From Gekko japonicus (Eukaryota): a stretch of 64,000 nucleotides of DNA. This document shows, in pieces, positions 11,625-61,375 of this stretch (its first letter is position 1; every line of letters begins with the position of its first letter). The DNA is taken from positions 246,692 through 310,691 of the forward strand of contig NW_015167073.1 of assembly GCF_001447785.1 (NCBI RefSeq), given 5' to 3'. Under the pieces are notes generated by a model. It did no database searches. It worked only from the letters and a program-made list of their open reading frames with translations, and was not told where the DNA came from. The position numbers were made by a program, and so were the translations under genes.

Positions 11625-11730
11625 TTGGAGGACTCTGCTAAGGTGATAGCAGATCTCCACAGGGATTGCTCTGATCCCTTTGGTACTTCTCTCTGGTTCA
11701 TTAGTAGTCTGTTGTTTGTTACTTCAAACA
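11625..11730 (-). promoter_or_regulatory. Conserved putative OR promoter block (OR1)
   Basis: TAATGA (tcatta 11698-11703) plus O/E-like tccacaggga; homologous blocks lie upstream of all six ORs. Confidence 0.6.
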
Positions 11731-12233
11731 ACATGTTGTCATATTGCCTATTTGTGTATTTCCTGGTGTCTACCTGCCTCTTCTCTAAAGTAAAATTCCA
11801 GTCCTGACTTCCTCTGGCTTCTTTAGTCCAGGAGATGCTTCAGGAGACTTCAGGGTCTTCATGGAACAACAATGTAGAGAAAGCTTCCCCCATCATAGCA
11901 TGATGCTTGGTTTCGAACCTCTCGGCCTTTTGTGATTCCCGCACCCTCCCCCATGGCAGGTATTCAGTGATGAATCTCACCTCCTATGGTGGACATATTG
12001 AGATGGTGCCCACCCTCTCAAATTCAAAAAGTGCCTACTGTTATGACAAGAAATTGTGGAATGTCCCTGAATAACAGAGAAGCTGGTTTTACAACCCTGA
12101 GGGCCTCAGACCACATGGGAACCAGACAACAAAAGCTTCTTGTTACACACAGGAAGGAAAGCCCCCCTATTTATAGGGATAATTTGCCGTACTGCTAGGA
12201 AGAAACAAAATGGCTGGCTTTTGATATCCTGAC

Positions 12234-12855
12234 TAGGCTTGTCAGCTCCCCAGGTAGAGGCAGGGGTCCCCACCACCAGCAGGTCCCGCTCCCCTCCACT
12301 GATCAACTGACTGGTGGAGGAACTTACCAGGAGAGTGAGAAAGGCCCAGGCAATATGGCAACATCATTTTCAGTGTGCACAGGAAGTGATGTCATGACAC
12401 CAGCAAAGTCCAGGTGATGATCTGGTGTTTGGGCAAAAACCCTATGGTAGAAGCTGGGGTTTTTTGCCATCGATAGGGTTGCCAGCCTCCAGGTGGGGCC
12501 TGGGGATCTCCCGCTTTTACAACTGATTCCCAGCCGAAAGAGATCAGCTCCCCTGGAGAAAATGGCTGCTTTGGAGGGTGAACTCAATGGCATTGTACTG
12601 TGCTGAGGCCCCTCCCCTCCCCAAACCCCGCCCTCTCCTGGCTCCACCCCCAAAGTCTCCAGGTATTTTCAAAACCAGACTTGGCAACCCTAGCCATCGA
12701 GTTTTTGCTTGAATACCAGAGTGTCACTGAGACGTGACTTGATGATGTCACTATCTGTCTACTCTGGGAATGACATCTCCGTGTTGCCTGGGCCTTCCTC
12801 TCCTGGTAAGTTCCCCTATCCCCCAAAAGTTGCCAGGAGAGACCTGGCAACCCTA
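12234..12855. mobile_element. Blackjack-like hAT MITE (outer element of a nest)
   Basis: Termini taggcttgtcag / ctggcaacccta; TSD atcctgac/atccagac. Confidence 0.75.
12474..12692. mobile_element. Blackjack-like hAT MITE nested in the previous element
   Basis: TIRs tagggttgcca / tggcaacccta; exact TSD gccatcga. Confidence 0.9.
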
Positions 12856-13616
12856 ATCCAGACCCACGGGGGCTTCAAAGCCAGGGGACCACCACAAACC
12901 TCATTGGTTAGATGCTAGCTGGTGGGAAACATGGGGAATCACTCTGTGTTTCAGGACAGGTCAAGCAGAACCTCTCCCAGCTGGAAAGGAAAGGGTTAAA
13001 AGGTTCTTCTCACGTCGTGTGAACTGTGCAAGCCAAGGAGCTCTGAACTGACAGTAAAGCTGAGTGACGTCTGCAAGGGCCATCCTGATTTTATAAGTTC
13101 ACGTTGTCTTGGGCCCATTTCTCCGAAACAAATGCCAAGGTAAAATCAGTGACCAGAGAAACCTAATTAGTTCGGTTTTCATCTCTTTTCTTAGTTTCTG
13201 TAACACACGTAGCTTTGCTCTGATATGTATTTCCATGCCTTTTTGTGTGCATAGTTGACAGGAGGGCTTTCTTGTTAAACAAAGATCTTTTTTTTCCCTT
13301 TTAAAGCTCTCAGACTGTGATTAAACTGCTCACCAGTGGGCCTGGCCATTCAACCACACAGAGATCAAACAGAGTACGGTTGCCAGGTTTTCCACTGTAG
13401 CAAATTCCTGGCAGCCTGGTATTTTGCCCAGAGGTGCATGAAGCACCAGGGGGAAGAAACGAGGGGGGAGCTGGGGTGTGCATTGGCATCATCTGAAGAA
13501 AACCAGAAGTAACATGACTGCATGCTCTAGGATTTGCAAAAACTCTATGATTTACCACAGAGTTTTTACAAACCCTTGGTGCATCCTGTGGCATCACTTC
13601 CGGACATCACTAGAAG

Positions 13617-14016
13617 CCGGGGCTATTTTGGGGTAAGAACGCACAGGAACGGAGTTCCGGCTGGCTTCATAGTTGGCCACGCCCACTCCAGCCAAAACCT
13701 CTGCGTGTGTGGCTACAGAGGGAAGGCCTGGAGAGCGACCCCCCCCGGTGACTCTGAGGCGGGTGGGCCAGGTGGGCCCTAGGAGGATCGGGGAGGCATT
13801 TAATTGCCTCCCCATGCCTTCTCCAGCCTGTCCAAGGGCTGGCTTGCCCGGGCAAGCCAAGGAAAGGCAGTTTAAACTGCCCCCCCTAAGGGCCGGCTTG
13901 CCCGGGCTCCCCGCAGCAGCGCCCCAGGGCGCCCAGGCAAGCCAAGGGAAGACATAGGGGTGTGGCCTAATATGCTAATGAGTTCCTGCTGGGCTTTTTC
14001 TACAAAAAAAGCCCAG
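13617..14016. mobile_element. hAT MITE inserted into an older palindromic MITE
   Basis: Ends ccggggctattttgggg / aaaaaaagcccag; exact TSD actagaag; same family as 28138-28528. Confidence 0.85.
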
Positions 14017-14449
14017 ACTAGAAGTGATGCCAGCGTGACAGTGCATATTAATTCCTCCCCTTTAAACTCTCCCAAGGGTTGCCAGCTACAGCCTGGCAGT
14101 CTTGGCCAAGCTTCAGGGAGGGGGGAACTAACCCCCCACATGCACGCTCACACCCACTCCCCCTTTTAGTGCAGTCAGACCACTGAAGGGAAGAGAGGGG
14201 AGCTCACAGAGTCCGACTGGTGCCAGTGTTGCCCTGCAAGGCCCTTATAGCGCTCTTATGGACATTGCTCATAAGTGATAGAAACTGGACTGGGCAAGTA
14301 GTGTGCAAAAGGGACTGAACTGTGTGGTGACCCAAAAGTGATGCCAGTTACAGACACACACCCATAAGAAGGAAGCCTTTGAGGTGAAGCCAGCCTTTGA
14401 GTGTATTTCTGGTACATCTGGAAGAAGCAGGAACCCTGTATACATAGGT

Positions 14450-14949: not shown

Positions 14950-15876
14950 TCACCATCTTTGCAGCACCCTGGACAGAGCCCCATGGATGTCCTTGTTGCG
15001 TAGGGTATAGATGATAGGGTTGAGCAAGGGGGTGACCACAACGTAAAAGACAGCAAGTCCCTTGTCACGATCAGGAGATGCCTCTGATCCAGAACTCAAG
15101 TATGTAATAATGAGGATGCCATAGGACAAAATGACCACAGTCAAGTGGGAGGCACACGTGGAGAAGGCCTTGTGCCACCCAGTGGCTGACTGCATTTTTA
15201 TCACCGAGGACAGTATGAGCATGTAGGAGATCAGGATAACCAAAAAGGGCAGGAGAATGATCAGTGCAGACACCACGATGGTATTGAGCTCAGTCTCTCG
15301 TGTGTCGGTGCAAGCCAGCTTGATCATAACCGGCATGTCGCAGAAGAAGTGATTGATGCGGTTGGGGCCACAGAAGGGGAGGCGGAAGGTGAAGCTGGAA
15401 TTTATTGAAGCAAGAAGGAAGCCACCTGCCCAGGAGGCTGAGGCAAGCTGCACCTGGCGCCACCTACCCATGGCAGTGACATAGAGCAGAGGATGGCAGA
15501 TGGCCAAGTAGCGGTCATAAGCCATGGTGCCCAGCAGAAAACACTCGACGCTACCCAGGCAGATGATCATGTACATCTGGACCATGCAACGGTTGAAGGA
15601 GATGGCTCCGTGTCCAGAGAGAAGGTGAGCCAGCATCTGGGGCATGCTGCAGTTGATATAGCAGATCTCCAAGACAGAGAGGTGCAAGAGGAAGAAGTAC
15701 ATGGGGGTCTGGAGGGAGGGATCTGTTCGCACCAGCATGATGATCAGCAGGTTTCCTATAAGGGCGAGGGAATAGATGAGGAGGACGACCACAAAGAGCA
15801 GGATCTGTGTCTGTCGGCGATTAGTAAGTCCCACTAGGATGAATTCTGTGATGGAAGAGAGGTTTTCAGAAACCAT
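14950..15876 (-). CDS. Olfactory receptor (class II) OR2, 308 aa
   Basis: Intact ORF from MVSENLSS with canonical OR motifs; the ORF-track TTG extension is intronic. Confidence 0.92.
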   Translation of the reverse strand: MVSENLSSITEFILVGLTNRRQTQILLFVVVLLIYSLALIGNLLIIMLVRTDPSLQTPMYFFLLHLSVLEICYINCSMPQMLAHLLSGHGAISFNRCMVQMYMIICLGSVECFLLGTMAYDRYLAICHPLLYVTAMGRWRQVQLASASWAGGFLLASINSSFTFRLPFCGPNRINHFFCDMPVMIKLACTDTRETELNTIVVSALIILLPFLVILISYMLILSSVIKMQSATGWHKAFSTCASHLTVVILSYGILIITYLSSGSEASPDRDKGLAVFYVVVTPLLNPIIYTLRNKDIHGALSRVLQRW

Positions 15877-16721
15877 CCTGGGCTCCGGTCTGCACAGAAA
15901 AGACAAGCTGGTGACATTATCTGGGATCGGAACAACTGTATTTTGTTGACCGTATTTTGGTCAATGTTTTACTGCAGTCAACCCAAACCAGCCCATCAGA
16001 CTCAGCCTCTAAATGTATGTCCAAATGCTTTCCTTCATTTTACATTGTTCCTTTTTTTCTGTGTGTCTCATACATCTATAACTATAAGTTTTATGCTTAT
16101 TTCTACTGCGCTGCTCTAAGATGACTGACTCTCTTGAATGACAGCTACAAGCGGTATCTGTTATTCGGCTCCCGCATTTTCAATATTGCTTAATAAAATG
16201 ACAATTCTTACATTACAGAATTTGCCTCAGTGAGATGTTCTATTCTGGACATTTTATCCATTAGCTAACAAACAAGCAAACAAAATTGGGTTAGCCCAGC
16301 CTTGTCAGACTTTGGAAGCTAAGTGTTGGAGTAATGCGACTCCGCATGCCTGGACATGGGGGGGGGATGTGTGCTACATTGTTGTAGACGTATAGATGTA
16401 TATCTCCTTAATGGAATTCCTCTTGTGGCAGAATGGGCCTACTCTGGCCTGAAGCCCCTCTTCCACCCTGCCTTCGAAGGTTTTACCCAACCTCTGGAGA
16501 GGCTTTTCTTTCTCTCTCCACCATCACCACCACCTCACCTTCGTAAGGAATTTCTCACTGGGAGGGTCAGGGTGCTCAGCTTCCCTTCCAAGTTCGGAGG
16601 CCTTGCCTTTGTGTCTCCCTGGTCACCAGAGGAACCATTTGCTGCCTTGTGTGCCCCTGGAGAAATAGCCACTTGTGAACTGCCTGCCTGCCTCCTGGTG
16701 CTCCTGTTAAAATAGTGTGTC

Positions 16722-17274: not shown

Positions 17275-18804
17275 TATGTATACAGATAAGCTGGAGAGCA
17301 ATTGGACTGACTTCTCCCTTCTTGCCTGTTCTCTACCCGGGGTGGGGGGGGGCTTTTAAAACTTCCTGGTGAAGGTGTTGCTCATGTCAGACCTCCAAGG
17401 AAAAAAAATTGCATTTCTATTTATTCTTAACCTGGGAGCTTCTCTCTGACCCCTCCTCTCTTGCTCTGTGTCCTTTGTTCTATCGCACTCTCCTCATGGT
17501 TCTTCATGAAGTCTGATGCATCTACAGGTCTCTCCTGCAAGAAGCAGTGTCCCCTTTCTTGCACATACATGCCACTGAATGAACTGGCCATTTTCGATAG
17601 GGTACCCGGTATAGTATCCTTTAGGTTACAATTCTTTCTCTCCTTTTGATTGCAACCTGGATGTGAACCGAATCTACTTAAATAAATGTAAGTTTTACCT
17701 TTTGCAGTTTATTTCTTGGAAGTTTATACACTGTACGCAATATCGTGCTTCCATGACTGGGCAAACTCTTCTGTACTAACTAATAATTATTCTCAATACT
17801 GAGCAGGGAAGCCCAGGGTTGCTACATAGAGGCAGGCCATGGCAAACCACCTCTGAACATCTCTTGCTTTATAAAGCCTATAGGACGGCTCAAAATCGGC
17901 TGCGATTTGATGGCAAACAAACAAAAATTAACAAAATCAGCCAAAATCCAGTGCTTAAAAAGATTTTTTTCAGTTAATTAGTCCCCAATTAATCTAAGAC
18001 TAAGATCCAGAGAAGATGATTCCATCAATCTCACCAGTGCTAGGTTAAAATGCCCAAACTGGGCCCCTTTCCTACACATTCCATATTACAAGATGTAATC
18101 CTACCTTGGCTCTCCTCCCAGAGATTCCTCAAACACTACAGAGTAATCCATGTCAACAGCTTTCATTAAGGTATATTTCAGGCAGCTGTCCAGTGCAACT
18201 GTTTGGAAGGTGCCTGAACTATCATGGATTTCAGGAAAGACCTGACTCATCTCATCCACTGATGGAGAGCTTCTCCATGTTGTTCCAAAAAGGCTGCTGC
18301 TCATACATTTGACAAATGGCAAGATCTTCTAGACTTTGGACAATCACCAATGAAGAAAAATTGGGCTCATCATACTGGTTGGGAATATGCTGCCATCACA
18401 TTGTTTGGGAACATCCTGTTCAATTTCTTCGCCGTCAGTGTTTCTCTGAGAAAGGGACTCATATGTAAGAAAAGGTTAGAAGCTACTTTCAGAGATGTGG
18501 TCCAGCAAGCCTGGCACCATCTATCATGATAGGCGGCAGAACGGCATAGTGTCTGGCAGATACCCTTGTCTTCTTCTCTGCTGTCCTTTGAAGTTGAGGA
18601 GCCAGGGACCTCATGCATGCCAAGGAAGTGCTTCACTAATAAGCTCTGCTTCTTCAACCAGCTTCTCAGCGGCTCCTCCAACACATTTGTACAGCCTTCT
18701 AAGATGAGAGTCAACCTAACTTGCTTTGCTAAACTCTAGCTTTTGTCAATGTTAGGACGCCAATTGAACATGGCCATTATCTCTCCCTGTGAGCTGTTTA
18801 TGAT

Positions 18805-18925
18805 TTGAGGATTCAGTAAGGTAATGAAGACAGTAGAGTTGCTCTATTGGGACTGGTCCAATCCCTTTGGTACTTTACACTGGCTCATTAGTCTGTTGTT
18901 TGTTACTTCAGCCTCCTGGGTAGCT
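18805..18925 (-). promoter_or_regulatory. Conserved putative OR promoter block (OR2)
   Basis: tcatta at 18885-18890, O/E-like tctattggga, and the tgtttgttacttca motif. Confidence 0.6.
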
Positions 18926-20298
18926 CTACTACTACTACTACTACTACTACTACGGGGGAAACTTCTGTGATTTTTGGATCTTTTAAAAAAGTTATACAAT
19001 GCAGGTTTTTAGATACTTTGCTGGCTTTTGGTAAGGAAGAACAGAGGAAAAGGGATTTTATCAATTCTTTCTTTTATATCCCACCCGTTCACCAAGGATG
19101 TGAAAAGAAGGATTAATCAAGATCTGTGTCTGGTTCTTTTAAGTTCAGAGGCAATCTCCTTCCATCTGATTTCTTTTATTTCCAAAGTCGGTAGCTTTTT
19201 TTCTATTTTATACCTGCTTTACATCAAAGCTAAATTAAACTGCTGGTGTTGCCTATAGAGGCCTATATGGTTTTTACAAAGACATTTTTTGTAACATACA
19301 TTCCAGCTTGCCCACTAAGCTAATAATGGGAGGGTCTGCTTAGAGTGCCCTCATTTACTGAAATGAGGCAGTTATGCACAGGAAACAGGGTCTTTTCAGT
19401 AGGGGCATCCATACTTTCCTCTCCCATAGAAGCTTGCCTGTTACCGACCTTACATTCCATCAAGCACCAGGGTTATATCGTTCTAATTTTCCCAGATGTT
19501 TTAAACTACATTTACAGTTGGTTTTGAGAACTGCATATTTAGGAACTTTGCCCCAATGGTATTGGTTTAGGCAGCAAATGCTGGTTCTGAGGAAACTTTG
19601 ATTTTTTTTATCTCTTTCATTTGGAGTATTTTTAATCACCGGTTGCCCTTCTTTTAGCCTCTGTTACTGTCTTGTTGAATTTAAGATGTGACATTTTCCA
19701 TTTTTGATTAGCCTATAGTTCTTTATTTTTATTTATCAGCATGCCGCGAGCCATCTCAGTTACCAATTTGTGTCCTGGAGGAATATAGACATTTAAAATA
19801 TATCAATACATTTGTTGACGTTGTTTTTATTTGCTTTATGACAGCTTAACTTCTCAGTAATAAATGATGTTTGATTTGCTCCTTTGTCTGCTATTGTTCA
19901 TATCCAATAACTCTTATTGTTCAAGCTTCTGAATAATCCCAACCACTGGAAAACCAGGTCCTACTTTTAAAATTGCACTTTGCCTTGGAGGCTATAAAGT
20001 TATATCATTGGTTTCCTTTGGAACAAAGAGCTCACGAACTGGTTTTTTGTAATGTTCACTTTATTTACAAATATATAAGTAGAGCACAATTCACAGAAGT
20101 CCCTCTTCCTTGGTTTATTCCAACTCGAAACTACTGTGTCCTCATACACAAACACAAACCTCTTTGCCCTCCCCTCTGCTGGGAAAAGTCACTTTCTCCA
20201 AGCTCTCCTAGATCTTTAACAGAGCCATCAGTAGATTGTCTCCTAAAATTAAGACCTGGTCAAGAATTTGTTGCACACCCAGAGTTCTCTGATTGTGC

Positions 20299-22313: not shown

Positions 22314-23273
22314 TCAAGACACCTGTGCTCGTCTTTCCCGTTTAAAGACCCACCTTTGCAGCACCCTGGACAGAGCCCCATGGATGTCCTTGTTGCGTAG
22401 GGTATAGATGATAGGGTTGAGCAAGGGGGTGACCACAACGTAGAAGACAGCGAGTCCCTTGTCACGATCGGGAGCTGTGTCTGACCCAGAACTCAAATAT
22501 GTAATAATGAGGATGCCATAGAACAAAATGACCACGGTCAAGTGGGAGGCACACGTGGAGACGGCCTTGTGCCACCCAGCGGCTGACTGCATTTTTACCA
22601 CCGAGGACAGTATGAGCACGTAAGAAATCAGGATAACCAAAAATGGAACGACAATGATCAGTGCAGCCACCACGATAACATTGAGCTCAGTCTCTCGTGT
22701 GTCGGTGCAAGCCAGCTTGATCATAACCGGCATGTCGCAGAAGAAGTGATTGATGCGGTTGGGGCCACAGAAAGGGAGGCAAAGGGTGAAGAAGCCATTT
22801 ACAGAAGCAAGAAGGAAGCCGCTGGCCCAGGAGGCTGAGACGAGCTGCACCTGGCGCCACCTACCCATGGCGGTGACATATAGCAGAGGATGGCAGATGG
22901 CCACGTAGCGGTCGTAAGCCATGGCGGCCAGCAGAAAACACTCGACGCTACCCAGGCAGATGATCATGTACATCTGGACCATGCAACGGTTGAAGGAGAT
23001 GGCTCCGTGTCCAGAGAGAAGGTGAGCCAGCATCTGGGGCATGCTGCAGTTGATATAGCAGATCTCCAAGACAGAGAGGTGCAAGAGGAAGAAGTACATG
23101 GGGGTCTGGAGGGAGGGATCTGTTCGCACCAGCATGATGATCAGCAGGTTTCCTATAAGGGCGAGGGAATAGATGAGGAGGACGACCACAAAGAGCAGGA
23201 TCTGTGTCTGTCGGCGATTAGTAAGTCCCACTAGGATGAATTCTGTGATGGAAGAGAGGTTCCCAGAGCTCAT
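22314..23273 (-). CDS. Olfactory receptor (class II) OR3, 319 aa
   Basis: Intact ORF from MSSGNLSS with OR motifs; close paralogue of OR2. Confidence 0.92.
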   Translation of the reverse strand: MSSGNLSSITEFILVGLTNRRQTQILLFVVVLLIYSLALIGNLLIIMLVRTDPSLQTPMYFFLLHLSVLEICYINCSMPQMLAHLLSGHGAISFNRCMVQMYMIICLGSVECFLLAAMAYDRYVAICHPLLYVTAMGRWRQVQLVSASWASGFLLASVNGFFTLCLPFCGPNRINHFFCDMPVMIKLACTDTRETELNVIVVAALIIVVPFLVILISYVLILSSVVKMQSAAGWHKAVSTCASHLTVVILFYGILIITYLSSGSDTAPDRDKGLAVFYVVVTPLLNPIIYTLRNKDIHGALSRVLQRWVFKRERRAQVS

Positions 23274-23728
23274 CCTGAGCTCCTGCCTGCAGAGAGAAGA
23301 CAAAGGTTAGTGACATTGCCTGGAATATGACAAGCCCACTGTACTTTTCACTGGAGTGAACCCAAACCAAGACATCACACCCAGCGTCCTAATGTATATC
23401 CAAACACCTTCCTTCATTTTACATTGTTCCTTTTCCTGAGTATGTGTCTCTTATGTCTTGAAGTCCAAGGCTCGTGTTCATTTTTCCTGCAGTACCCTAA
23501 AATGGCTGCCACTCTGGAATGATAACTATGAGAGATCTCTCTGATTTGACTCCCACGTTTTAAATATCAATGGGCAAACCTTATGCCACCTTCCATTACA
23601 GAGTTTGCCTTCATAAAATGTTCTAATCTGTACAAATGTTCTAATCTAACAAACAAACAAAAATGTTCTCACCTGGATAGCCTAGGCTAGCCCAATCCCA
23701 TCAGACTTTGAAAGCTATTCGTTAGAGT

Positions 23729-25720: not shown

Positions 25721-26799
25721 CTAATACATATCCTTAGTATTAAGTACGGTCAACCATGGTTACTACTTGGATGGAAGACTAGCAAGGAAGTCCCGAGTTG
25801 CTATGAAGATGCAGGCCATGGCAAATCACCCTTGGATATCTCTTGCTTTGAAAAACCCTAAGGGATTGCGCGAAATTGGCTGTGATATAATGACAGACAA
25901 ACAAAAATCGAACAAAATCAGCCAAAATCCAGAGTTTAAAAACATTTTTGTCAGTTAATAACTCCCCAATTAATTGGAGAGTAAGAACCAGAGAAGACGA
26001 TTCTATTAATCCCACCGGTGCTAAATTAAAATGCCCAAACAGGCTCCTTTGCTACACATTCCATATTGCTACATGTAATCCTACCTTGGCTCTCCTCCCA
26101 GAGATTCCTCAAACACTACAGAGTTTTTCATGTCAACAGCTTACATTAAGGTATATAATAGCTGGCTGGCTTTCAGGTAGCCTTCTAGTGCAACCACTTG
26201 GAAGATTCCCGGACTGTCATGGATTTCAGGAGGGACCAGACCCATCTCTCATCCCCTGATGGAGAGCTTCTCCACATTGTTCCAAAAAGGCTGCTGCCTG
26301 TCCATTTGATAAACAGCAAGATCTTCTGGACTTTGGACTATCACCAATGAATAAAAATTGGGCTCATCATACTGGTTGGGAATATGCTGCCATCATGTTG
26401 GTTGAGAACATCCTGTTCAATTTCTTCGCCGTCAGTGTTTCTCTGAGAAAGAGACTCATATGTAAGAAAAGGTTAGAAGCTACTTTCAAAGATGTGGTCC
26501 ATCAAGCCTGGCACCATCTATCATGATAGGTGGCAGAACGGCATAGTGTCTGGCAGATACCCTTGTCTTCTTCTCTGCTGTCCTTTGAAGTCGAGGAGCC
26601 AGGGACCTCATGCATGCCAAAGAAGGGCTTCACTAATAAGCCCTGCTGCTTCAACCAGCTGGTCAATGACTCCTCCAACCCATCTGAACTGTCTTCAAAG
26701 ATAAGAGTCAACCTAACTGGCTTTGCTGAACATCTAACTATTGTCGGTGTTAGGACACCGCCAGCATGTGGCTGTTGCTTCTCCCTATGAGCTGCCCAT

Positions 26800-26925
26800 G
26801 ATTTCTGAATTCAGTTAGGTAACAAAGACAGTAGATCTGCTCCATTGGGAGTGGTCCAGTCCCTTTGGTACTTCTCTCTGGCTCATTAGTCTGTTGTTTG
26901 TTACTTCAGCCTCCTGGATAGCTCA
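26800..26925 (-). promoter_or_regulatory. Conserved putative OR promoter block (OR3)
   Basis: tcatta at 26883-26888 and O/E-like tccattggga. Confidence 0.6.
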
Positions 26926-27114
26926 AGCACTTATACCACCATGGGGAAAAGTTCCTTAATTTTGGATCATTTTTTTTTAAAAAAAGTTATACAGTGCAGG
27001 TCTTCATATAGTTTGCATGTTCTTGATAATTAAGACAAACAGAGGGAAAGGAATTTTATTAATTCTTTCATTAATAAAAGAAGGAACACTTGAGATGTTT
27101 ATCTTTGGCTCTTT

Positions 27115-28855: not shown

Positions 28856-29654
28856 CCTGAACTCATATTTGATTAGTACAGTTCTTTTCAAGCTCATGCT
28901 CAGTTCCATAATTTGGTGGCCCTCTGTGCCTCATTACCTGAGACACTTTAATTTGAGGCTACAAGCTGGGGACCTTTGTACACACACAACTTGCCCTCAG
29001 CTACCCAGCTGCGGTTCCTAAACAACCTTGCAAAGGTGTCCCCCACCAAGGAATTATCAAAGACTTCTCTGGCAAGAGTCAGAATGATCTGGTTAAACAT
29101 TCTCAGAAGACAGTGAGCGTACTGGCTTTTCCCTCACCCCCTCAGGCTTTAAGATATCCAGAAGATAATGAGGTCTGTGGATCTTCTCCATGGGGACAAC
29201 TCTAATCTCTTTGGTTGCTTACCTCTGGATTATTAAAAAGTTGTTAGGTTATCCACTTGAGGTTCAAGCACGTAATGCAGCATTATATGGGGGGGGGGGT
29301 TATTTGTTGCATTTTTCCTGTTACTCCATGATTTAGTGTGGGAAAAGAAGCTGCAATTGTCTAAATTAAGTCCCAACCTAGCTCAAGAAAGCTGACAGTG
29401 GTTCCTTCACCTCAGAACAGTGCTTCTGAGGTACGCTAGGCTGAGAAGATCTGCAAGTGATAGTCGGAATTGTCTGTAGAATGAGGAAGCTTTCTCCTAC
29501 CTGTCTGAAAGTTGGCAGAGGAAAGTGCTATCAAATCGCAGCTGACGTATGGTGACCCTGCAGGGTTTTCAAGGCAAGAGATGCTCAGAGGTGGTTGGCC
29601 ATTGCCTGCCTCTGCGTAGCAACCCTGGACTTCCTTGGTGGTCTCCCATCCAAG

Positions 29655-41907: not shown

Positions 41908-43094
41908 CTGCCATTGCCTTCCTCTGCAGAGCCTTCCTTGGTGGTCTCCCTTCCAAATACTGACCCTGCTTGGCTTCTGAAATCTGACAAGATCAGGTCA
42001 TACACCGTGCCACCTTCCCTCTTTCCCTGACATTAGTTCTGGAGAAACGGATGTGCAGTTGGTTGGATCATGGTGGGGATATGTCCAGTCCAAAGAGCAT
42101 TGTTTTTTTCTTCTTTTTATCTTTATTTAGGCTCTCAAGTTTAGAGAAATTAAGGGCGATGAGAGGCAGAAAGGGATAAGATAAAAGTGTCCAAGCCCTC
42201 TTCAGGCAGTGTATTAAGTGAAGTCAATACCTTTTCAGGATGGAGAATGCCCACAATCTTAGCCAGAGCAGATGGTCCTGATAGGCCCATCCACAGAAGC
42301 ATCAATGACCAATAGGAGTTCCACACCTTCCTCTTACATACTGCAACATATAAGCTTACCTCAATTCTCCACCCAGGCGTTCCTCAAGCAGAGATACATT
42401 TTTCATACTAGTGGCTAACATTAAGGCATGCGACAGCTGGGTGGTTTTTAGTCTGCTTTCTGGTGCCAGATGTTAAAAGATCATGTGAAAGACAACTGGA
42501 TTGTCCCCGGTTATGGGAACATTTTCTCTCACCCTGTGATGGAGGCTTTTCTATGTTGCTCTGAAAGAGCTGTTGACTGTCGTTTTCTTCTTCCAGTATG
42601 AAAACTTCAAGCTGGAAAAATGACAAGATCCTGTGGAATGAATTATGGGCCATATTACTGGTTGGGGATACATTGTAGGGTTGATTGAGTCTCGGAGCCT
42701 TCATTCCAAAGAGGAAGGAAGAACACAGTGATATCCATTTTTTCCAAGGAGGTGCTTCAAAGCTCAGGCCAGTGTGGGAGCTGCTTTGAGATAAATGGTC
42801 CATCAAATCTGTCTATATCTGGACTGGCAGCACAGCTTCTGAGTCTCTGATAGACTTCCATAACATAAATCCTGAGATCTTTAAGTGGCAAGCCAGAGAC
42901 TTCATGCATTCCAAGGATATCCTTTAACACTAAGCTCTGGTTACCAAACCCCCTTGAGGAGGGCTCATACAACAATTTTGCAAAGCCTTTTAAGATAAAG
43001 AGTCCACACAACCCATTTTCTTCAACAGTTTGACTACTCTCAGCATTAGAAGACTGACAGCATTGTGGTGTCTTTCCCTGTGACCTGTCCAAGA

Positions 43095-43215
43095 TTCAAG
43101 GATTCAGTAATGTAGTAAACTGTGGATATACTCCACAGTTACTACTCTGATCCCTGTGGTACTTCTCCTGTGGTTCATTAGCAGTCTGTTTGTTCCTTTA
43201 ACCTCTTGGGTATCT
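43095..43215 (-). promoter_or_regulatory. Conserved putative OR promoter block (OR4)
   Basis: tcatta at 43175-43180; homologous to the other five blocks. Confidence 0.55.
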
Positions 43216-43238
43216 GAAACACTTAGAGCACTTAGAAA

Positions 43239-43580
43239 AGTGTTATACATTTTTTTCTTTTTTTTACTTTGCAGCTTTTCAAATCATTTGTAAGTTGTTG
43301 GCAAAAAAGAAGAAGAGAGGAAAAGGAATTTTCGTATTTATTTATTTCATTTAGTGTTATACATTTTTTTCTTTTTTTTACTTTGCAGCTTTTCAAATCA
43401 TTTGTAAGTTGTTGGCAAAAAAGAAGAAGAGAGGAAAAGGAATTTTCATATTTATTTATTTCATTTAGTGTTATACATTTTTTTCTTTTTTTTACTTTGC
43501 AGCTTTTCAAATCATTTGTAAGTTGTTGGCAAAAAAAGAAGAAGAGAGGAAAAGGAATTTTCGTATTTATTTCTTTCATT
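43239..43580. repeat. 114-bp unit, tandem x3
   Basis: agtgttatac at 43239, 43353 and 43467; single copy at about 51815-51940. Confidence 0.92.
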
Positions 43581-47820: not shown

Positions 47821-47874
47821 AGCAACTGGCAGTGATTGGACAAAATTGATTGCAGTTCATTAAGACATCCATGC

Positions 47875-48819
47875 TCAGCTTTTCTGTTTAAAGCCCCTTC
47901 TTTGCAGCATCCTGGACACAGCCCCATGGATGTCCTTGTTGCGCAGGGTATAAATGATCGGATTGAGCAATGGGGTGACCACAATATATAGGACAGCAAG
48001 TTCTTTGTCACGATCAGGTGCTGCATCCGACCCGGGTGTCAGGTACACAAAGATGAGAATGCCATAGAATAAGATGACCACTATCAAGTGGGAGGCACAC
48101 GTGGAGAAGGCCTTGCGCCGCCCGGCTGCTGACCGCATGCGTATCACAGTTGCCAGTATGAGCATGTAAGACATGAGGATAACAAAAAAGGGAATTACGA
48201 TGATCAGTGCAGCCAGAATGATAATGGTGCGCTCGGTCACATGTCTATCAGCACATGCGAGTTTCAACACAATGGGCATGTCGCAGAAGAAATGATTGAT
48301 GCGGTTGGGACCACAGTAGGGAAGGTGAAGGGTAATGCCCACATTTATTGAAGCAAGAAGGAAGCCACTTGCCCAAGAGGCTGAGGCAAGCTGAACTTGA
48401 CGCCACCTACCCATGGCGGTGACATATAGCAGAGGACGGCAGATGGCCAAGTAGCGGTCATAAGCCATGGCGCCCAGCAGAAAACACTCGACGCTACCCA
48501 GGCAAATCACCATGTACATTTGAAAAGCACACCGGGGGAAGGAGATGGCTCCGTTTCCAGCAAAGAGATGAGCCAGCATCTGGGGCAGGCTGGAGGTGAC
48601 ATAGAGGATCTCCAGGACGGAAAGATTTGAGAGGAAGAAGTACATGGGGGTGTGGAGGGAGGCGTCGCCTTGTACCAGCATGATGATCACGAGGTTCCCC
48701 ACCACGGTGAGGGCATAGATGAGGAGGATGACCAGGAAGAGAAAAATTTGTGTCTTGCGGTGGTTGGTGAGTCCTACCAGAATGAATTCTGTGACAGAAG
48801 AGAGGTTCTCAGCCCCCAT
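47875..48819 (-). CDS. Olfactory receptor (class II) OR5, 314 aa
   Basis: Intact ORF; close paralogue of OR4. Confidence 0.93.
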   Translation of the reverse strand: MGAENLSSVTEFILVGLTNHRKTQIFLFLVILLIYALTVVGNLVIIMLVQGDASLHTPMYFFLSNLSVLEILYVTSSLPQMLAHLFAGNGAISFPRCAFQMYMVICLGSVECFLLGAMAYDRYLAICRPLLYVTAMGRWRQVQLASASWASGFLLASINVGITLHLPYCGPNRINHFFCDMPIVLKLACADRHVTERTIIILAALIIVIPFFVILMSYMLILATVIRMRSAAGRRKAFSTCASHLIVVILFYGILIFVYLTPGSDAAPDRDKELAVLYIVVTPLLNPIIYTLRNKDIHGAVSRMLQRRGFKQKS

Positions 48820-49508
48820 TGTGGGCTCCTGTCTGCAGAGAAAGGGCAAGAATCAGCGATGTAGACATGTGTAGCTCTCTGTCACATGGAAGTAAACAGT
48901 TCAGCTCAGTACCTTTACTGGCATAGATTGAAAGCGCGACAAGAACCACAGTTTTAATATACAAATCATCGCTCCAGAGCATTAACATTATATCCCCTAA
49001 TCCTCCTAACAATCGAGAAATACCTCGCTCTTGAGAAGGTAATATGGGGGCACTGGTCCGCTAAAAGGAAGGAGACAGGCCTCTGTCCCGGATAGTTTTG
49101 CCTGTTGTGCAAAAGGGGACTAAATTAAAACATCCCATACATTTAACATCACGGTGGAGCAAAATTTGAGTGACCAGTTCTGGTTTTCTACTGCTACACT
49201 GACAGATCCTTTAAAGGTAAGGAAGGAACATTTGAAAATCTCCCACAGAGAACCACTGATGGGAGGACAATGTAAACACAAATAGCCCATCAAACTCAAC
49301 ATCAAGAGGTCAGTCAAAACAAAAGCGAGAGAGTCTTCAGTGTTGCCTTTCAGAATGTATGTCACAAGTTTCCCATAGTATGAGGGCATTGAGTCCAGAC
49401 ACATAGTAGTGCTGGTCTGCTGTAGTAGAAACAATCTCAGGTTTCAGTCATGATGGATTGGATCCAACCAGATTTTCCTCTTCTGAACAAGGGAGGAGGG
49501 GGGATTTT

Positions 49509-49948
49509 CAAGGCTGGCTCGCTCACTAGGCGAACTAGGTGTTCGCCTAGAGCACACCAGCCCTTAGGGGTGCCAAACTGCACCCGCCCCCCCCCGCCTA
49601 AAGACCTGCATTTCCACAGCCGGATGACCCCCGACGCTGCCCGCCACCTCTTTGGCCAGCTAACTTCTCCCTGCCTGCCCTCTCGGCTTCCCAGCGGAGC
49701 GCTTCTCCTCCTCCTCCTCGCGGCCAGGGACTGGCAGCTGCAGCAGGAGCAGCAGCAGCAGTAGGGCCGGGGAGCGACGGCTTGTGAGCTCCCCGTCGGT
49801 CAGCCTCTTCTCCAGGTGCCCTGACAAGGGGCGCCAAACTGCACTCGCCCCCCGCCAACAGCCCCCCATTGGCTCTAGCCGGGGGGGGCACGGGGGGCGC
49901 CAGAAGGGATCCTTGCCTAGAGTGCAAAATAAGCTGGGGGCAGCCCTG
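49509..49948. mobile_element. GC-rich hAT (Tip100-like) MITE
   Basis: Ends caaggctggc / gcagccctg; TSD gggatttt/gggctttt; empty site at about 40170. Confidence 0.8.
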
Positions 49949-51669
49949 GGGCTTTTGGCTCACCAGAAAAGGAGAACCAGGAGGCCTACATGGATGAAAA
50001 GCATTTAGGATAGGGGCTGTAGCAAGGTGGCCAAGACTGAAGTCCCATAGCAACTTAAAGACCCAACAAGATTTCCATGGTATTTCTCGAAAGTTTATAC
50101 CCTGGAAATCTTGTTGGTTTCTAAGGTGCTATCGGACTGGAACCTTGCCATTCTACTGCAGGCCAACACAGCTACCCACCCAAAACTGTAGTAAGGAGGG
50201 AAGTTCTTTTGAGTGAAAAAACTGACTAGATCCAACCCTATCAAAGTTAACCATCTTAATAAAACCTGGGAATCCTCAGTAGTTTCTAGTGTCAACTACT
50301 ACAAGCCATGGTAGCTACAGGGCACCTCCATTATCCAGAGGCAGAAAAAATGCTCAGTACCAGTGCTAGGAGGCAATATTGGCAAAGGCCTCGGCCTCTG
50401 TTGGCCCTCTTGTTTTCTTATGTGCTGTGTGCCACTTCTTTTCAAGAACAAGGGGGAATATCTAGGATCTTTAATGCTGTCCTCAAGGCAAGAGGCTGAA
50501 GCACCAAAATGTTTCCCTTGACCTTGTGTGTGTAAAGTGTCTTCAAGTTGCAGTCAATTCAAGGAGACCCCAGCCAAGGGCTTTCAGGGCAAGCGAGAAG
50601 AAGGTCTGCCATTGCCTTCCTCTGCAGAGCCTTCCTTGGTGGTCTCCCTTCCAAGTACTGACCCTGCTTAGCTCCTGAGATCTGACAAGATTAGGCCATA
50701 CACCGTGCCATCTTCCCTCCTTCCCTGACATTAGTTCTGGAGAAACTGATATGCGATTGGTTTGATCGTGTTGGGACACTTTCAAAGAGCACTGGTTTTT
50801 CTTTTTGTCTTTTATTTAGGCTCTCAAGTTAAGAGAAATTAAGGGCGATGAGAGGCAGAAAGGGATGAGAGGAAAGTGCCCAATCCCTCTTCAGGCAGTG
50901 TATTAAGTGAAGTCAATACCTTTTCAGGATGGAGAATGTCCACACCCATAGACACATCAGTGACCAAAATTAGTTCCACACCTCCCCATTGTATACTGCA
51001 ACATATAAGCGTTACCTCAGTTCTCGACTCAGGCATTCCTCAAATGGTGACACATTTTTCTTGCCGGTGGCTAACATTAAAGCATACAACAACCGGGTGG
51101 TTTTTAGTCTCCTTTCTGGTGCCAGATGTTTAAAAAATGAGGTGAAAGACGACTGGATTGTCCTTGATTATGGGTGACATTTTCTCTCACTCAGCGATGG
51201 AGGTTTTTCTATGCTGCTCTGAAAGAGCTGTTGACTGTCGTTTTCTTCTTCCACTATGAAAACTTCAAGCTGGAAAAATGACAAGATCCTCTAGAATAAA
51301 TTATGGGCCATATTACTGGTTGGGAATACACTGTAGGGTTGATTGAGTCTCGGAGCCTCCATTCCAAAGAGGAAGGAAGAACACAGCGATATCCATCTTT
51401 TCCAAGGAGGTCCTTCAAAGCTCAGGCCAGTGTGGGAGCTGCTTTGAGATAAATGGTTCATCGACTCTATCTATATCTGGACTGGCAGCACAACTTCTGG
51501 ATCTCTGATAGATAGACTTCCATAATGTCCATAAACTTAAATAAACTTCCATAAATTAAAGCCTCTTAAAATAAAGAGTCCACACAACCTATTTTCTTCA
51601 ACTGTTTGACTACTCTCAGCATTAGAAGACTGACAGCATTGTGGTGTCTTTCCCTGTGACCTGTCCAAG

Positions 51670-51795
51670 ATTCAAGGATTCAGTAACGTAATAAAGACTG
51701 TGGATATACTCCACAGTTACTAGTCTGATCCCTGTGGTACTTTTCCTCTGGTTCATTAGCTGTCTGTTTGCTCCTTTAACCTCTTGGGTGTCTCA
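51670..51795 (-). promoter_or_regulatory. Conserved putative OR promoter block (OR5)
   Basis: tcatta at 51753-51758; homologous block. Confidence 0.55.
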
Positions 51796-52141
51796 AGCAC
51801 TCAGAGCACTTAGAAAAGAGTTATATAATTTTTTGGGGGGGTTTCTTTTTTACTTTGCAGCTTTTCAAATCATTTGTAAGCTGTTGGCAAAGAAGAAGAA
51901 GAGAGGAAAAGGAATTTTCATATTTATTTCTTTCATTTATAGCCCACCTGGCCATCAAGGCACTGAGAATAGGGATGAACCAGTCTGTCAGTTTGAAGCT
52001 CTTTTAGAATTAAATCCAGAGTCCACATTTCCCTCTCATGATTTCTTTTCTTTTCTTTTTTAATTCCAAGATAGGTTGTATTTTTTTCCAATTGTTGTTT
52101 ATAACTCTATTACGTCCAATCATAAGAACATAAGAGACGCC

Positions 52142-53522: not shown

Positions 53523-54449
53523 TTAAAGCCTTCGAAGCACCTTGACCACTGCACCATGGACATCTTTATTCCGCAGGGTGTAAATGATCGGGTTGAGCAG
53601 GGGAGTGACCACAATGTAAAAGACTGCAATTTTCTTGTCAAAATCAGAACCTGAGCCCAACCCAGGCCGCATGTACATAGTGATGACAGTACCATAGAAC
53701 ACGGTGACCACTATCAGGTGGGAGGCACATGTGGAAAAGGCCTTACGCCGTCTTGTCGTTGTCCTCATTTTTAATATTGAGAACAGAATGAGCCCGTATG
53801 AAGTCAGAATAACAGCCAAGGGACCCAGGAGGATCAGTGCAGCTGTCCCCAAAACAACCTTTTCCGTAATATGGGTTTCAGCGCATGCAAGCTTCAGCAC
53901 AGCTGGCAACTCACAGACAAAGTGGTTTATGTGGCTGGGGCCACAGAAAGGATGGCGAAAGGTGCAGCTCACGTTTACCGTTGCGAGGAGGATGCCTAGT
54001 CCCCAGCAGAAGGAAGCCAGCTGCAACTGGTGCCACCTGTCCATGGCGATTGCATATAGTAAGGGGCGGCAGATGGCCAAGTAGCGGTCATAGGCCATGG
54101 CACTCAGCAGGACACATTCGGTGCCCCCCAGGGTCAATATCAAGTGCATCTGTATGGCGCAGCCTATGAAGGAGATGGTCCGGTTCCCGGACAGAAGGTT
54201 CAACAATGCCTGGGGTAACGTGCTGGTGACGTAACACATCTCCATGGCTGCCAGGTGAGTGAGGAAAAAATACATGGGGGTATGGAGGCGAGAGTCGGCC
54301 CGCACCAAAACGATGACCACTCCGTTACCCACGAGGGTGAACAAGTAGATGACAAGGATGACCACAAAGAGCAGAACCTGCATCATGCGGTGGCTGGAGA
54401 GTCCCAGCAAGGTGAACTCCTTGACGGAGGTGAGGTTCTGAGTCACCAT
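53523..54449 (-). CDS. Olfactory receptor (class II) OR6, 308 aa, most divergent member
   Basis: Intact ORF from MVTQNLTS; LHTPMYFFL, MAYDRYLAIC, KAFSTCASH, YMRP and PLLNPIIYTLRNK motifs. Confidence 0.94.
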   Translation of the reverse strand: MVTQNLTSVKEFTLLGLSSHRMMQVLLFVVILVIYLFTLVGNGVVIVLVRADSRLHTPMYFFLTHLAAMEMCYVTSTLPQALLNLLSGNRTISFIGCAIQMHLILTLGGTECVLLSAMAYDRYLAICRPLLYAIAMDRWHQLQLASFCWGLGILLATVNVSCTFRHPFCGPSHINHFVCELPAVLKLACAETHITEKVVLGTAALILLGPLAVILTSYGLILFSILKMRTTTRRRKAFSTCASHLIVVTVFYGTVITMYMRPGLGSGSDFDKKIAVFYIVVTPLLNPIIYTLRNKDVHGAVVKVLRRL

Positions 54450-54605
54450 TCTTGGATTCTTGCCTGCAGAGAGAGAATGAAAGTGGAAGGGAAAGTGTCC
54501 TTCTCTGAGAACAGGACAACCTTTTAAAAATATATATATTGCGCTTTGATCTCCCCATCGCTATCATAAATGCAGGACAAATCTGTCAAATTCAGAATCT
54601 CCACC

Positions 54606-56081: not shown

Positions 56082-56091
56082 TCTCCACCCA

Positions 56092-58810: not shown

Positions 58811-59082
58811 TTTGGTGTAGTGGTTAAGTGCGCGGACTCTAATCTGGGAGAACCGGGTTTGATTCCCCACTCCTCCACTTGCACCTGGCTGGATGACCTT
58901 GGACAAGCCGTAGTTCTGATAAGAGCTGTCCTCGAAAAAGAGCAGTTTCTGTCAGAGCTCTCTTGGCCCCACCTACTTCACAGGGTGTCTGTTGTGGGGA
59001 GGGGAAGGAGTTTGTAAGCCGCTCTGAGACCCCTTTGGGTAGTGAAGGGTGGGGTATAAATCCAATCTCTTCTTCTTCTTCT
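58811..59082 (+). mobile_element. tRNA/L2-tail SINE (minus-strand copies at about 59255-59495 and 61690-61948)
   Basis: Same family as 5255; (TTC)n tail. Confidence 0.82.
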
Positions 59083-59678
59083 TTTTCTCCTCAAAGGGGA
59101 GCCCAATGCAGTTGATAGCCCCAGTCTCCCCTCCTTCATTTTATCCTCACACCAATCACTCTGTGACACACATTGGGCTGAGAAGGAGAGTGACTGGCCA
59201 AGGTCACCCAGTGAGGAGGAGGAGGAGGGGAAGAAGAGGAAGGGGAGAAGTTACATTTATCCCCCGCCCTTCACTACCCGAAGGAGTCTCAGACTAGCTT
59301 ACAATCTCCTTTCCCCTCCCCTCCCCTCTCCCGTTAGGTAAGTGGGGCTGAGATAGCTCTTTTGAGAACCGCTCTCAGAGAACCATGACTGGCCCAAGGT
59401 CACCCAGCTGGCTTCATGTGGAAGGAGTGGGGAATCAAACCCAGTTCTCCAGATTAGAGTCTGCTGCTCTTAACCACTATGCCAAGCTGACTCTCATGGA
59501 AGCTAAACTTCCATGGCAGAATCAGGATTCAAACTGGGGTCTGCTAGAGCCTAATCCAGCTCTCTAACCACTTCAGTACGAGAGCTATTCCAAATTTGAA
59601 ATGCCTGTGGATGTCGGCTACCTGATTACAGAGGCCTATCTGCATCAGTTAACAATAGCCTATTATCTGAATGCCCAG

Positions 59679-60376
59679 TGTCACGGCTGCTGCTGAACAG
59701 GAGCACTTGGCCCCAGCAGGAGATCTAAGTACTGCTGGGGATGAGCATTTGGCCCCAGTAGAAGACCAAAGTACTGCTGGGGATGAGCTCTCGGCTCCTG
59801 AAAACCCCGCACCTGACAGGACTGAAGCCACAGAAGCTGCTCCAATAACAGCTGAAGCAGAATCACGCCGAATCAAAACTCCCCCTGACTCGCCTCCACT
59901 GGTATCCCACTTGTGGGGACAATGCCGACAGGAAATGGCATCCCAGCGTTGGGAGGCGTGCATGCATGGTAGGTGCTCTTTTAGCCCTGAGTACTAGCAG
60001 GAGCCGGGACACAATCAGGGTGCGCTAATTGCCGACAGCCTTACGAGCTATTTAGCTCTCTCACTCGTGCCAACTAGTTGTGCTAGCAACTAGTCGTTCT
60101 GGACGAAGCTTTGCACCTCACCACCCGTGTTCCTGTTCCAGCTCCTTGTTTTGACTTCTCGGCTCCTGACCTCGGCTCGTATGACTATGCTCCTGACCTG
60201 TACCTCGGACCTCTGACTCCCTGGCTTCTGACTTCTTTGGAACACTGGCTTTAACGACTACTCTAACGGTTGGTGATTTGGACTTGGTCTCTCGGTGTTT
60301 CTGCTTGCCCAGTTTGGACTTTGGACTGCTTTTGGACTACCTTGCTCTTGCCTGGCCTGGTACCGCGTTCGTGACA
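59679..60376. mobile_element. 698-bp solo LTR, Gypsy-like termini
   Basis: TIRs tgtcacg / cgtgaca; exact 5-bp TSD cccag. Confidence 0.88.
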
Positions 60377-61259
60377 CCCAGTAACATATAATCTTACCTG
60401 GGTTCTTCTCACTGGTGTTCCTCTACAACGAAGAAGGAAGCTTGCATGCTGCCCAGGTTCAGTTAAGGTGCACAGCAGCTGAGCGAGTTGGGTCCAGCTA
60501 TTTAATTCAAGATGATGGGGAACTCTTTGGAAGGTCAGGGGACTAGTAGAGCGTCCAGGGAGAAAATTTACAGCATTTCTCGTACGGGAGGTGATGTCTG
60601 GTGATTTCTTTCCCCCGGCTCTGAAAATTGCCCGCAGTAGCACCTAAGTAGCCTAAAAGTTTCATGCCTTTCCCCCCACTCCAGTTGGAATGCCTCTGAA
60701 ATTTCCTAGGTGGAAAAATGGCCAGAAGTGTCAAAAGCTCCTCTGAAATGAGTTATGGACCATGGACACATGCTACTTTAGAAAATCTTGGACACATTTT
60801 CTCCTTAGTTTGTTGCTATTAGTTATCAGGGTTTCTGTTTCTACGAGAAAGGCATACACAAATAAATGTCAATAGGACAGCTGTTGACCAGCTATTTTAC
60901 TTCTAGGATAGAAGCTACTTTATGCTGTGAAGTGGTCCACTTAGCCTAGCATCATCTTGTCTAGCAGCATATTTCCAAGGTTTCAAGTAAGATGTCCTTC
61001 CAAGCCAGGTTCCCAGAGATCCTTTAGCTGAAAATATGAGGAACTTCATACATATGTGCAGAGCATTAGCTCTTTGCCCAGGAGCCCTGTCTCTTAAACC
61101 ATTGTGGCCAATGCACCTCCAACCAGTTTGCAGATACCTAGAATGTAACAAGTAACACAATTTGGCTTTTCCCACTGCCTAAGAAATCTCAGCTTTGGAA
61201 GGCATGGCAGCAAGCTGCTTGGGGTTTTTCTTTTTTCCCTTCCTGGAGATTCTCAAAGA

Positions 61260-61375
61260 TTTGAGGATTCAGGAAGATGACAACGACTGTAGATCTGCTC
61301 TCCTGGGACTGCACCAGTCCCTTAATAGCTTGGGGTGATTAATGGTTGTTTGTTAGCTCAGTCTCTTGGGTCTGT
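61260..61375 (-). promoter_or_regulatory. Conserved putative OR promoter block (OR6)
   Basis: gaggattcag...ctgtagatctgctctcctgggactg...cagtccc...tgattaatggttgtttgtta; homologous to the OR2/OR3 blocks. Confidence 0.55.

What the first reader, a model, noticed from the sequence alone, without database searches (positions are those of the whole stretch)
11625..61375. A ~110-bp HD + O/E module is retained upstream of all six OR genes
Seen: homologous blocks at about 11625, 18805, 26800, 43095, 51670 and 61260, roughly 1.1, 3.0, 3.6, 3.7, 2.9 and 6.9 kb upstream of the respective ATGs. Each has TAATGA (TGATTAAT in OR6), a TGTTTG(T/C) motif and O/E-like TCCNNNGGGA sites (degenerate in OR4/OR5). Known: mouse OR promoters and enhancers use Lhx2 homeodomain plus Ebf (O/E) sites. 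Inference: this is the squamate proximal OR promoter, kept even in the divergent OR6 while the intervening DNA turned over.
Basis: partly seen in the sequence, partly recalled or inferred. Interest (0 to 1): 0.7.

Follow-up and report, generated by a model that had tools for sequence, protein, structure and literature searches.

The report
Inherited promoter of one reptile OR subfamily
Almost every smell-receptor gene of one cluster in this reptile genome carries the same inherited short DNA block 1-8 kb upstream, which is likely its promoter and is built from the same kinds of motifs that switch on mouse smell-receptor genes, but the other receptor clusters tested lack it.

Summary
The six blocks are real, and a seventh (29111-29285) was missed. 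A profile of the six finds a co-oriented copy 1.0-8.0 kb upstream of 28 of 29 full-length ORs of this subfamily; the exception is a pseudogene. It finds none near 58 ORs on eight other contigs. The block is therefore subfamily-specific, not 'the squamate OR promoter', and not a dispersed repeat. [quoted passage not shown] No copy has a perfect O/E palindrome. The core reads HD, about 13 bp, O/E-like, 9 bp, O/E-like, reverse HD-like. It heads a roughly 1-kb inherited unit that ends at a splice-donor-like site shared by all six window genes, so the DNA downstream did not simply turn over. Best reading: co-duplicated promoter plus 5' non-coding exon, likely bound by Lhx2/Emx2 and Ebf, like mouse OR and V1R subfamily promoters. 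Constraint is modest: 0.64x flanking DNA, equal to synonymous sites. No start site or binding is shown. This scan noted similar motif blocks before at lizard V2R and shark GPCR genes.

The parts
11588..11760 (-). Core block B1 (OR1): TAATGA 11703-11698, O/E-like-1 11684-11675, O/E-like-2 11665-11656; reverse HD-like site lost
18767..18946 (-). Core block B2 (OR2): TAATGA 18890-18885, O/E-like-1 18871-18862, O/E-like-2 18852-18843, reverse HD (TAATGA on + strand) 18822-18827
26765..26944 (-). Core block B3 (OR3): TAATGA 26888-26883, O/E-like-1 26869-26860, O/E-like-2 26850-26841
29111..29285 (-). Carries AACTTTTTAATAA (12 of 13 bases of the mouse extended HD 13-mer) and a reverse TAATGA at 29166-29171. 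Likely orphan of a lost gene or second promoter of OR3
   Evidence: 13-mer from PMC7804114 passage
43058..43236 (-). Core block B4 (OR4): TAATGA 43180-43175, O/E-like-1 43160-43151; O/E-like-2 degenerate
51634..51814 (-). Core block B5 (OR5): TAATGA 51758-51753, O/E-like-1 51738-51729, O/E-like-2 degenerate, reverse HD-like TTATTA 51694-51689
61223..61394 (-). Core block B6 (OR6): TAATCA 61341-61336, O/E-like-1 61327-61318, O/E-like-2 61308-61299
11023..11587 (-). Homologous tail of unit 1 ending at predicted splice donor (GT 11024-11023); likely holds the start site and 5' non-coding exon
   Evidence: donor predicted from sequence only
18103..18766 (-). Homologous tail of unit 2, predicted donor GT 18104-18103
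26083..26764 (-). Homologous tail of unit 3, predicted donor GT 26084-26083
42358..43057 (-). Homologous tail of unit 4, predicted donor GT 42359-42358
51014..51633 (-). Homologous tail of unit 5, predicted donor GT 51015-51014
60396..61222 (-). Homologous tail of unit 6, predicted donor GT 60397-60396
9588..10560 (-). OR1 coding exon (ATG 10547, acceptor-like AG 12 nt before it); one in-frame stop near codon 50: pseudogene or assembly error
14950..15889 (-). OR2 coding exon (ATG 15876) with acceptor-like site; C-terminal tail shorter than in OR3
22314..23286 (-). OR3 coding exon (ATG 23273) with acceptor-like site
38546..39503 (-). OR4 coding exon (ATG 39490) with acceptor-like site
47875..48832 (-). 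OR5 coding exon (ATG 48819); Pfam 7tm_4; closest solved structures are class II consensus ORs
53523..54463 (-). OR6 coding exon (ATG 54449), 59% identical to OR5; Pfam 7tm_4

Best explanation
The block is an inherited, gene-by-gene retained element upstream of 28 of 29 receptors of one class II OR subfamily, and it is likely the promoter core of each gene, copied together with the gene at each tandem duplication. Shown: linkage, orientation, retention, motif conservation, a homologous tail ending at a donor-like site, and an acceptor-like site just before each ATG. Inferred from mouse OR promoters: a homeodomain factor (Lhx2/Emx2 type) binds TAATGA and perhaps the reverse TT(A/C)ATTA site, and Ebf (O/E) dimers bind two imperfect sites whose strong halves face each other (GGGA-9 bp-TCCC). 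Transcription would start within the next few hundred bases, a non-coding first exon would end at the donor 0.7-0.9 kb past the homeodomain site, and it would splice over a repeat-filled intron of variable length to the acceptor 10-14 nt before the ATG. Transposon insertions stretch the intron and upstream DNA but are likely purged from the core.
For: 28 of 29 full-length ORs (28 on C7363, 1 on C15290) have a co-oriented block as nearest upstream element, including the four ORs on the + strand; the exception has internal stops. Retention peaks sharply at the block: a mean 12.6 of 27 other units align there, against 2.0 or fewer in every bin upstream, 7.1 and 3.3 in the next two bins downstream, and 2.2 in the 200 bp before the ATG. 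0 of 28 cores are repeat-flagged while 42% of surrounding DNA is. An O/E site within one mismatch occurs in 11 of 28 cores against 10 of 204 random windows. In six close paralogue pairs the core differs at 63 of 695 sites against 1278 of 9002 in other aligned non-coding DNA (p 1e-4; lower in 6 of 6 pairs). A donor-like site aligns in 6 of 6 window units and 9 of 28 overall. 7 of 10 well-supported block-tree splits are in the coding tree. Precedent: mouse OR promoters carry HD and O/E sites (PMC12547500, passages), and V1R start sites map inside subfamily-specific 0.5-1 kb upstream homology peaks (PMC1955453, abstract and first part of section 6).
Against: No start site or binding was shown. 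The core as a whole evolves no slower than OR fourfold-degenerate sites (0.091 against 0.099 in close pairs, p 0.66; tree length 6.5 against 6.9) and no slower than its own downstream tail (0.095). With all ten pairs pooled, core and other non-coding DNA do not differ (p 0.89); four distant pairs were set aside because little of their flanks aligns. 0 of 28 cores hold a perfect TCCCNNGGGA; exact TAATGA is in 18 of 28. No aligned TATA box was found. The block-versus-gene distance correlation is weak (Spearman 0.14; 59 of 999 permutations reach it). O/E-like-1 and the reverse HD site were picked after seeing all 30 copies, so their test is not independent. The donor is missing from 19 of 28 units at the aligned column.
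Confidence: 0.7

Rival explanations
1. The block is a gene-local enhancer or upstream element several hundred bases from the true start, which would lie further down the 1-kb unit or near the coding exon.
For: The donor lies 0.7-0.9 kb downstream of the homeodomain site, long for one first exon. There is no TATA at the block. Two blocks have no gene of their own. V1R starts lie near the middle of their homology peaks (PMC1955453).
Against: There is one block per gene, always upstream and co-oriented, whereas enhancers usually need neither (established knowledge). Homology stops sharply upstream and tails off downstream. HD and O/E are 12-14 bp apart in most copies, not adjacent as in mouse OR enhancers (PMC5608512).
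Confidence: 0.15
2. The block is a largely neutral remnant of the ancestral gene's upstream DNA, kept visible by duplication history or gene conversion; the motifs are incidental.
For: Core divergence equals synonymous-site divergence. Three of 10 supported block splits conflict with the coding tree. Gene conversion has been proposed for V1R promoter peaks (PMC1955453). PMC3247239 warns that motifs shared by duplicates are not independent.
Against: Neighbouring DNA of the same ancestry is not retained. 0 of 28 cores carry repeats against 42% background. Motif columns beat all background windows in held-out copies. Block branches are long, so copies are not recently homogenised.
Confidence: 0.08
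3. The block is a promoter element, but the GGGA/TCCC pair is bound by a different dimeric factor (for example an Ikaros-family zinc finger), not Ebf.
For: Only half of each O/E palindrome is well conserved, and the fixed feature is GGGA-9 bp-TCC in 22 of 28 units. PMC3247239 notes that O/E and Ikaros sites are hard to tell apart.
Against: The outer halves keep the purine/pyrimidine pattern of an O/E site (ACCA-AA-GGGA, TCCC-TG-TGGA). Degenerate Ebf sites near Lhx2 sites are usual in mouse OR elements (PMC5608512).
Confidence: 0.05
4. The block is a dispersed repeat, a transposon relic or a structured RNA.
For: The core has a loose dyad symmetry (weak opposite-strand self-hits at E 0.7-0.8).
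Against: Whole-genome DNA searches gave 3 of 3 and 5 of 5 hits on C7363; tight patterns gave 4 of 4 and 1 of 1 there with 0 control hits. There is no hit in 600 kb elsewhere, no Rfam match and no consensus pairs. The genome search skips common words, so absence is not absolute.
Confidence: 0.02

Closest known systems
Mouse class II OR proximal promoters (M71/Olfr151, MOR23; HD plus O/E sites; reviewed in PMC12547500, passages read; PMC3247239, Background section and passages read)
   Same: Homeodomain TAAT site plus O/E-like sites upstream of a class II OR; co-duplication of promoter with gene is described for mouse ORs.
   Different: Start site unmapped here. No perfect O/E site and no conserved TATA. 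The layout stays alignable across a whole cluster down to about 57% protein identity. No sequence comparison with mouse promoters was possible.
Mouse V1R subfamily promoter homology peaks (Stewart and Lane 2007, PMC1955453; abstract and first part of section 6 read)
   Same: A 0.5-1 kb island of upstream homology, several kb from the coding exon, shared within a subfamily and absent across subfamilies; substitution rate below flanking DNA.
   Different: Different receptor family and lineage. V1R starts were mapped by RACE near the middle of the peak; here conservation peaks at the 5' end of the island.
Greek Island Lhx2/Ebf composite motif of mouse OR enhancers (PMC5608512, passages; PMC7804114, passages)
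   Same: HD next to a degenerate O/E site in a stereotyped order.
   Different: The composite has adjacent sites and a 2-bp insertion impairs it. Here the spacer is mostly 12-14 bp and varies (0-19). There is one element per gene, orientation-locked, rather than a few intergenic enhancers per cluster.
Mouse OR37/family 262 promoter motif blocks (Hoppe et al. 2003; paper not held; title seen in a reference list, content recalled)
   Same: Recalled: clustered paralogues share a short upstream block with HD and O/E-like motifs.
   Different: Could not be checked; no sequence comparison.

Membership tests
Vertebrate OR proximal promoter (HD + O/E type) | Lies upstream of an OR gene in its orientation | tested here: met
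   28 of 29 full-length ORs, both strands; OR identity by Pfam 7tm_4 and class II structures
Vertebrate OR proximal promoter (HD + O/E type) | Conserved homeodomain site (TAAT core) | tested here: met
   TAAT in 24 of 28, TAATGA in 18 of 28; 0.87 conservation in 22 held-out copies against 0.62 background
Vertebrate OR proximal promoter (HD + O/E type) | O/E (Ebf) site | tested here: inconclusive
   0 of 28 perfect; 11 of 28 within one mismatch against 10 of 204 random windows; half-sites strongly conserved. The consensus TCCCNNGGGA is recalled.
Vertebrate OR proximal promoter (HD + O/E type) | Transcription start within a few hundred bases downstream | not testable with these tools
   No run with OR reads over this stretch; only donor-like and acceptor-like sites predicted
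Vertebrate OR proximal promoter (HD + O/E type) | Bound by Lhx2/Emx2 and Ebf; drives sparse expression in olfactory neurons | not testable with these tools
   Needs binding and reporter assays
Vertebrate OR proximal promoter (HD + O/E type) | TATA box (present in part of mouse OR promoters) | tested here: not met
   TATAWA matches are scattered and unaligned; 21 downstream against 35 upstream in equal 1.3-kb spans. Not an obligatory feature.
Greek Island composite enhancer motif | Adjacent Lhx2 and Ebf sites at rigid spacing | tested here: not met
   Spacer 12-14 bp in 12 of the 18 measurable units, range 0-19; 10 of 28 not measurable
Greek Island composite enhancer motif | Intergenic element shared by many genes of a cluster | tested here: not met
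   One copy per gene, orientation-locked
Universal squamate OR promoter | Present upstream of ORs of other subfamilies and clusters | tested here: not met
   No hit near 58 ORs on eight contigs, 54 of them with at least 2.5 kb of upstream DNA; none near 3 ORs on C10116 and C17328
Universal squamate OR promoter | Present in other squamate species | not testable with these tools
   No relatives held; no look-alike windows
Dispersed repeat / transposon | Copies unlinked to OR genes | tested here: not met

The most novel reading that the evidence does not exclude
Each gene of this cluster carries its own dyad-symmetric module (HD > O/E, 9 bp, O/E < HD) that assembles two Ebf dimers between two homeodomain factors: an enhancer-strength, gene-autonomous switch with a grammar different from the mouse Greek Island composite. 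Reptile ORs would then be chosen by competition among self-sufficient promoters, and the few copies in which a deletion brings HD directly against the O/E-like site (contig 362, 377, 446 and 485 kb genes) would show how a composite-like motif can arise from it.
Probability: 0.1. Interest if true: 0.65.

Novelty: new member of a known kind. Interest (0 to 1): 0.36.

Why it matters
OR promoters and their HD and O/E sites are well studied in mouse. Four searches of the held library listed no paper describing them in a reptile, though most subscription papers are not held. This gives a precise, testable candidate: 30 natural variants of one element, with predicted 5' exon boundaries, that could show whether Lhx2/Ebf control of OR choice predates the mammal-reptile split. 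It is the expected result rather than a surprise, and it holds for one subfamily only.

Tried and rejected
Expression: no RNA holder on record was listed. A lay of four runs on 48680-52300 covered only interspersed repeats, with zero depth on the block, the donor and the start of the coding exon; about 3 in 100 of the raw-read run was read. The loose pattern gave 23 hits (7 in the cluster, 16 elsewhere) against 8 control hits; the 16 outside hits were not fetched, and by eye they share only the pattern letters. Structured RNA rejected. Forkhead-like TGTTTG rejected as a core part. TATA and GCCATNTT motifs are not enriched (the offsets printed there are shifted by 2000, counts unaffected). J-element AAACTTTTC-like words upstream of the blocks were seen by eye and not pursued. 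The pooled ten-pair constraint test was negative; only the six close pairs show the effect. Hoppe 2003 and Vassalli 2011 are not held. No supplements were read; the exact Greek Island consensus sits in figures that I could not see.
Full report
Observation. The window holds six class II odorant-receptor genes on the minus strand; OR1 has an in-frame stop. The six blocks lie where stated and align at 76% mean column identity. The quoted distances are ATG-to-TAATGA distances. TAATGA is present in 5 of 6 blocks, TAATCA in the sixth, and TGTTTG(T/C) in 6 of 6. An exact TCCNNNGGGA occurs in only 2 of 6. A seventh block lies at 29111-29285.

Extent in the genome. The window is part of a larger cluster on contig C7363. 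I fetched 320 kb around it and about 70 kb from three other contigs. A profile of the six blocks found 30 copies at E below 1e-3, 24 of them new, while the reversed control reached E 0.76 at best. Of 29 full-length ORs of this subfamily, 28 have a co-oriented block 1.0-8.0 kb upstream with no OR between, including the four genes on the + strand. The exception carries internal stops. Two blocks, B7 and one at contig 414 kb, have no gene of their own and no OR remnant behind them. One 3' OR fragment at 527 kb was not counted.

Other clusters. The 30-copy profile found nothing in 600 kb from eight other contigs holding 58 full-length ORs: best E 4.2 against 4.8 for the reversed control. Of these, 54 had at least 2.5 kb of upstream DNA, so a few distant copies could have been cut off. 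These ORs are the best-scoring subset of 1119 candidates, of which 127 were scored, not the whole repertoire. A six-gene subfamily on C5528 has its own, unrelated upstream block, with TAATGA and O/E-like words seen by eye. Whole-genome DNA searches and tight patterns hit only C7363. The block is therefore specific to one subfamily. It is not a dispersed repeat, and it is not a sequence common to this genome's ORs. No other species could be searched.

Anatomy. In the sense direction the consensus of 28-30 copies is TAATGA, about 13 bp, ACCAAAGGGA, 9 bp, TCCCTGTGGA, about 15 bp, TTATTATCTT. The two O/E-like sites face each other as an inverted pair (GGGA-9-TCC in 22 of 28 units), and the last word is TAAT(A/G)A on the other strand. 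No copy has a perfect O/E palindrome; 11 of 28 are within one mismatch, against 10 of 204 random windows. The HD-to-O/E spacer varies from 0 to 19 bp. O/E-like-1 (0.83; GGGA half 0.94) and the reverse HD site (0.80) were chosen after I saw all copies.

Beyond the core. Homology continues about 700-900 bp towards the gene and, in all six window units, ends just past an aligned AG|GTA donor-like site. The same column scores as a donor in 9 of 28 units, using a recalled frequency table. By eye, each OR has a pyrimidine tract and AG 10-14 nt before its ATG. This predicts a non-coding first exon and a variable, repeat-rich intron. No aligned TATA box was found, nor any RNA structure.

Constraint. 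Retention peaks at the block: 12.6 of 27 other units align there, against 2.0 or fewer upstream and 2.2 before the ATG, and 0 of 28 cores are repeat-flagged against 42% of the surrounding DNA. Finding a core by profile favours intact ones, but only 1 of 29 genes lacks a core. Substitution evidence is weaker. In six close paralogue pairs the core (0.091) and tail (0.095) differ less than other aligned non-coding DNA (0.142) but no less than fourfold-degenerate OR sites (0.099). Pooling all ten pairs removes the difference; the four distant pairs were set aside because little of their flanks aligns. Core tree length is 6.5 against 6.9 for synonymous sites and 9.5-15 for flanks, where misalignment inflates the figure. 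Block and gene trees agree on 7 of 10 well-supported splits, but deep nodes are unresolved and the overall correlation is weak.

Mechanism. The best reading (0.7) is a co-duplicated promoter and 5' exon, likely bound by a homeodomain factor and Ebf as in mouse OR promoters. Linkage, orientation, retention and motif conservation are shown. The start site, splicing and factor identity are inferred. The RNA runs available did not cover the unit. Rivals are a gene-local enhancer (0.15), a neutral or conversion-maintained relic (0.08), a different GGGA-binding factor (0.05) and a repeat (0.02).

Comparison. Mouse OR promoters carry HD and O/E sites within a few hundred bases of the start (PMC12547500, passages; PMC3247239, Background and passages). 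Mouse V1R subfamilies show the same pattern of subfamily-specific upstream islands that contain the start sites (PMC1955453, abstract and first part of section 6; lead also in PMC3247230, passages). The Greek Island composite needs adjacent sites (PMC5608512, passages; PMC7804114, passages), which most copies here lack. PMC5318403 and PMC11643329 were searched for passages and added little. Searches for a reptile or bird account listed none that fits; one search found no held primary paper on OR37 promoters.

Verdict. Interest 0.36. The bolder dyad-enhanceosome reading has about a 1 in 10 chance.

Noticed in passing
window 63477-64000 (-), continuing to about G000:C7363:320200 (L004): A V2R-type class C receptor gene (Pfam 7tm_3; about six exon-like open frames) sits inside the OR cluster, co-oriented, between OR6's block and the next OR; it is the only such transmembrane exon in the 384 kb examined.
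   Followed up: partly
window 29111-29285 and G000:C7363:414062-414238 (L014): Two blocks with no OR coding remnant behind them; B7 carries 12 of 13 bases of the mouse H/P extended homeodomain motif. Orphan promoters of lost genes or second promoters.
   Followed up: partly
L009:4867-5042, L010:9431-9606, L017:8250-8419, L021:2255-2424: In four copies a deletion of about 12-13 bp brings the TAAT site directly against the first O/E-like site, approaching an adjacent composite layout.
   Followed up: no
G000:C5528:185000-262000 (L063-L070): A six-gene OR subfamily has its own roughly 450-bp conserved upstream block, 1.1-4.9 kb from the ATG, with TTAATGA, GGGGAAA...TCTCCC and TCTCTGGAGA words, unrelated in sequence to the block studied here.
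   Followed up: partly
window 10398-10400 and 14950-14952: OR1 has an in-frame stop near codon 50; OR2 ends earlier than its close paralogue OR3, shortening the C-terminal tail.
   Followed up: no
window 43239-43580: A 114-bp unit triplicated in tandem just upstream of block B4, single-copy at B5.
   Followed up: no
window 32874-33631 and 36322-37253: Two inverted, decayed reverse-transcriptase-like (LINE) fragments about 82% alike between OR3 and OR4 (family assignment by eye).
   Followed up: no
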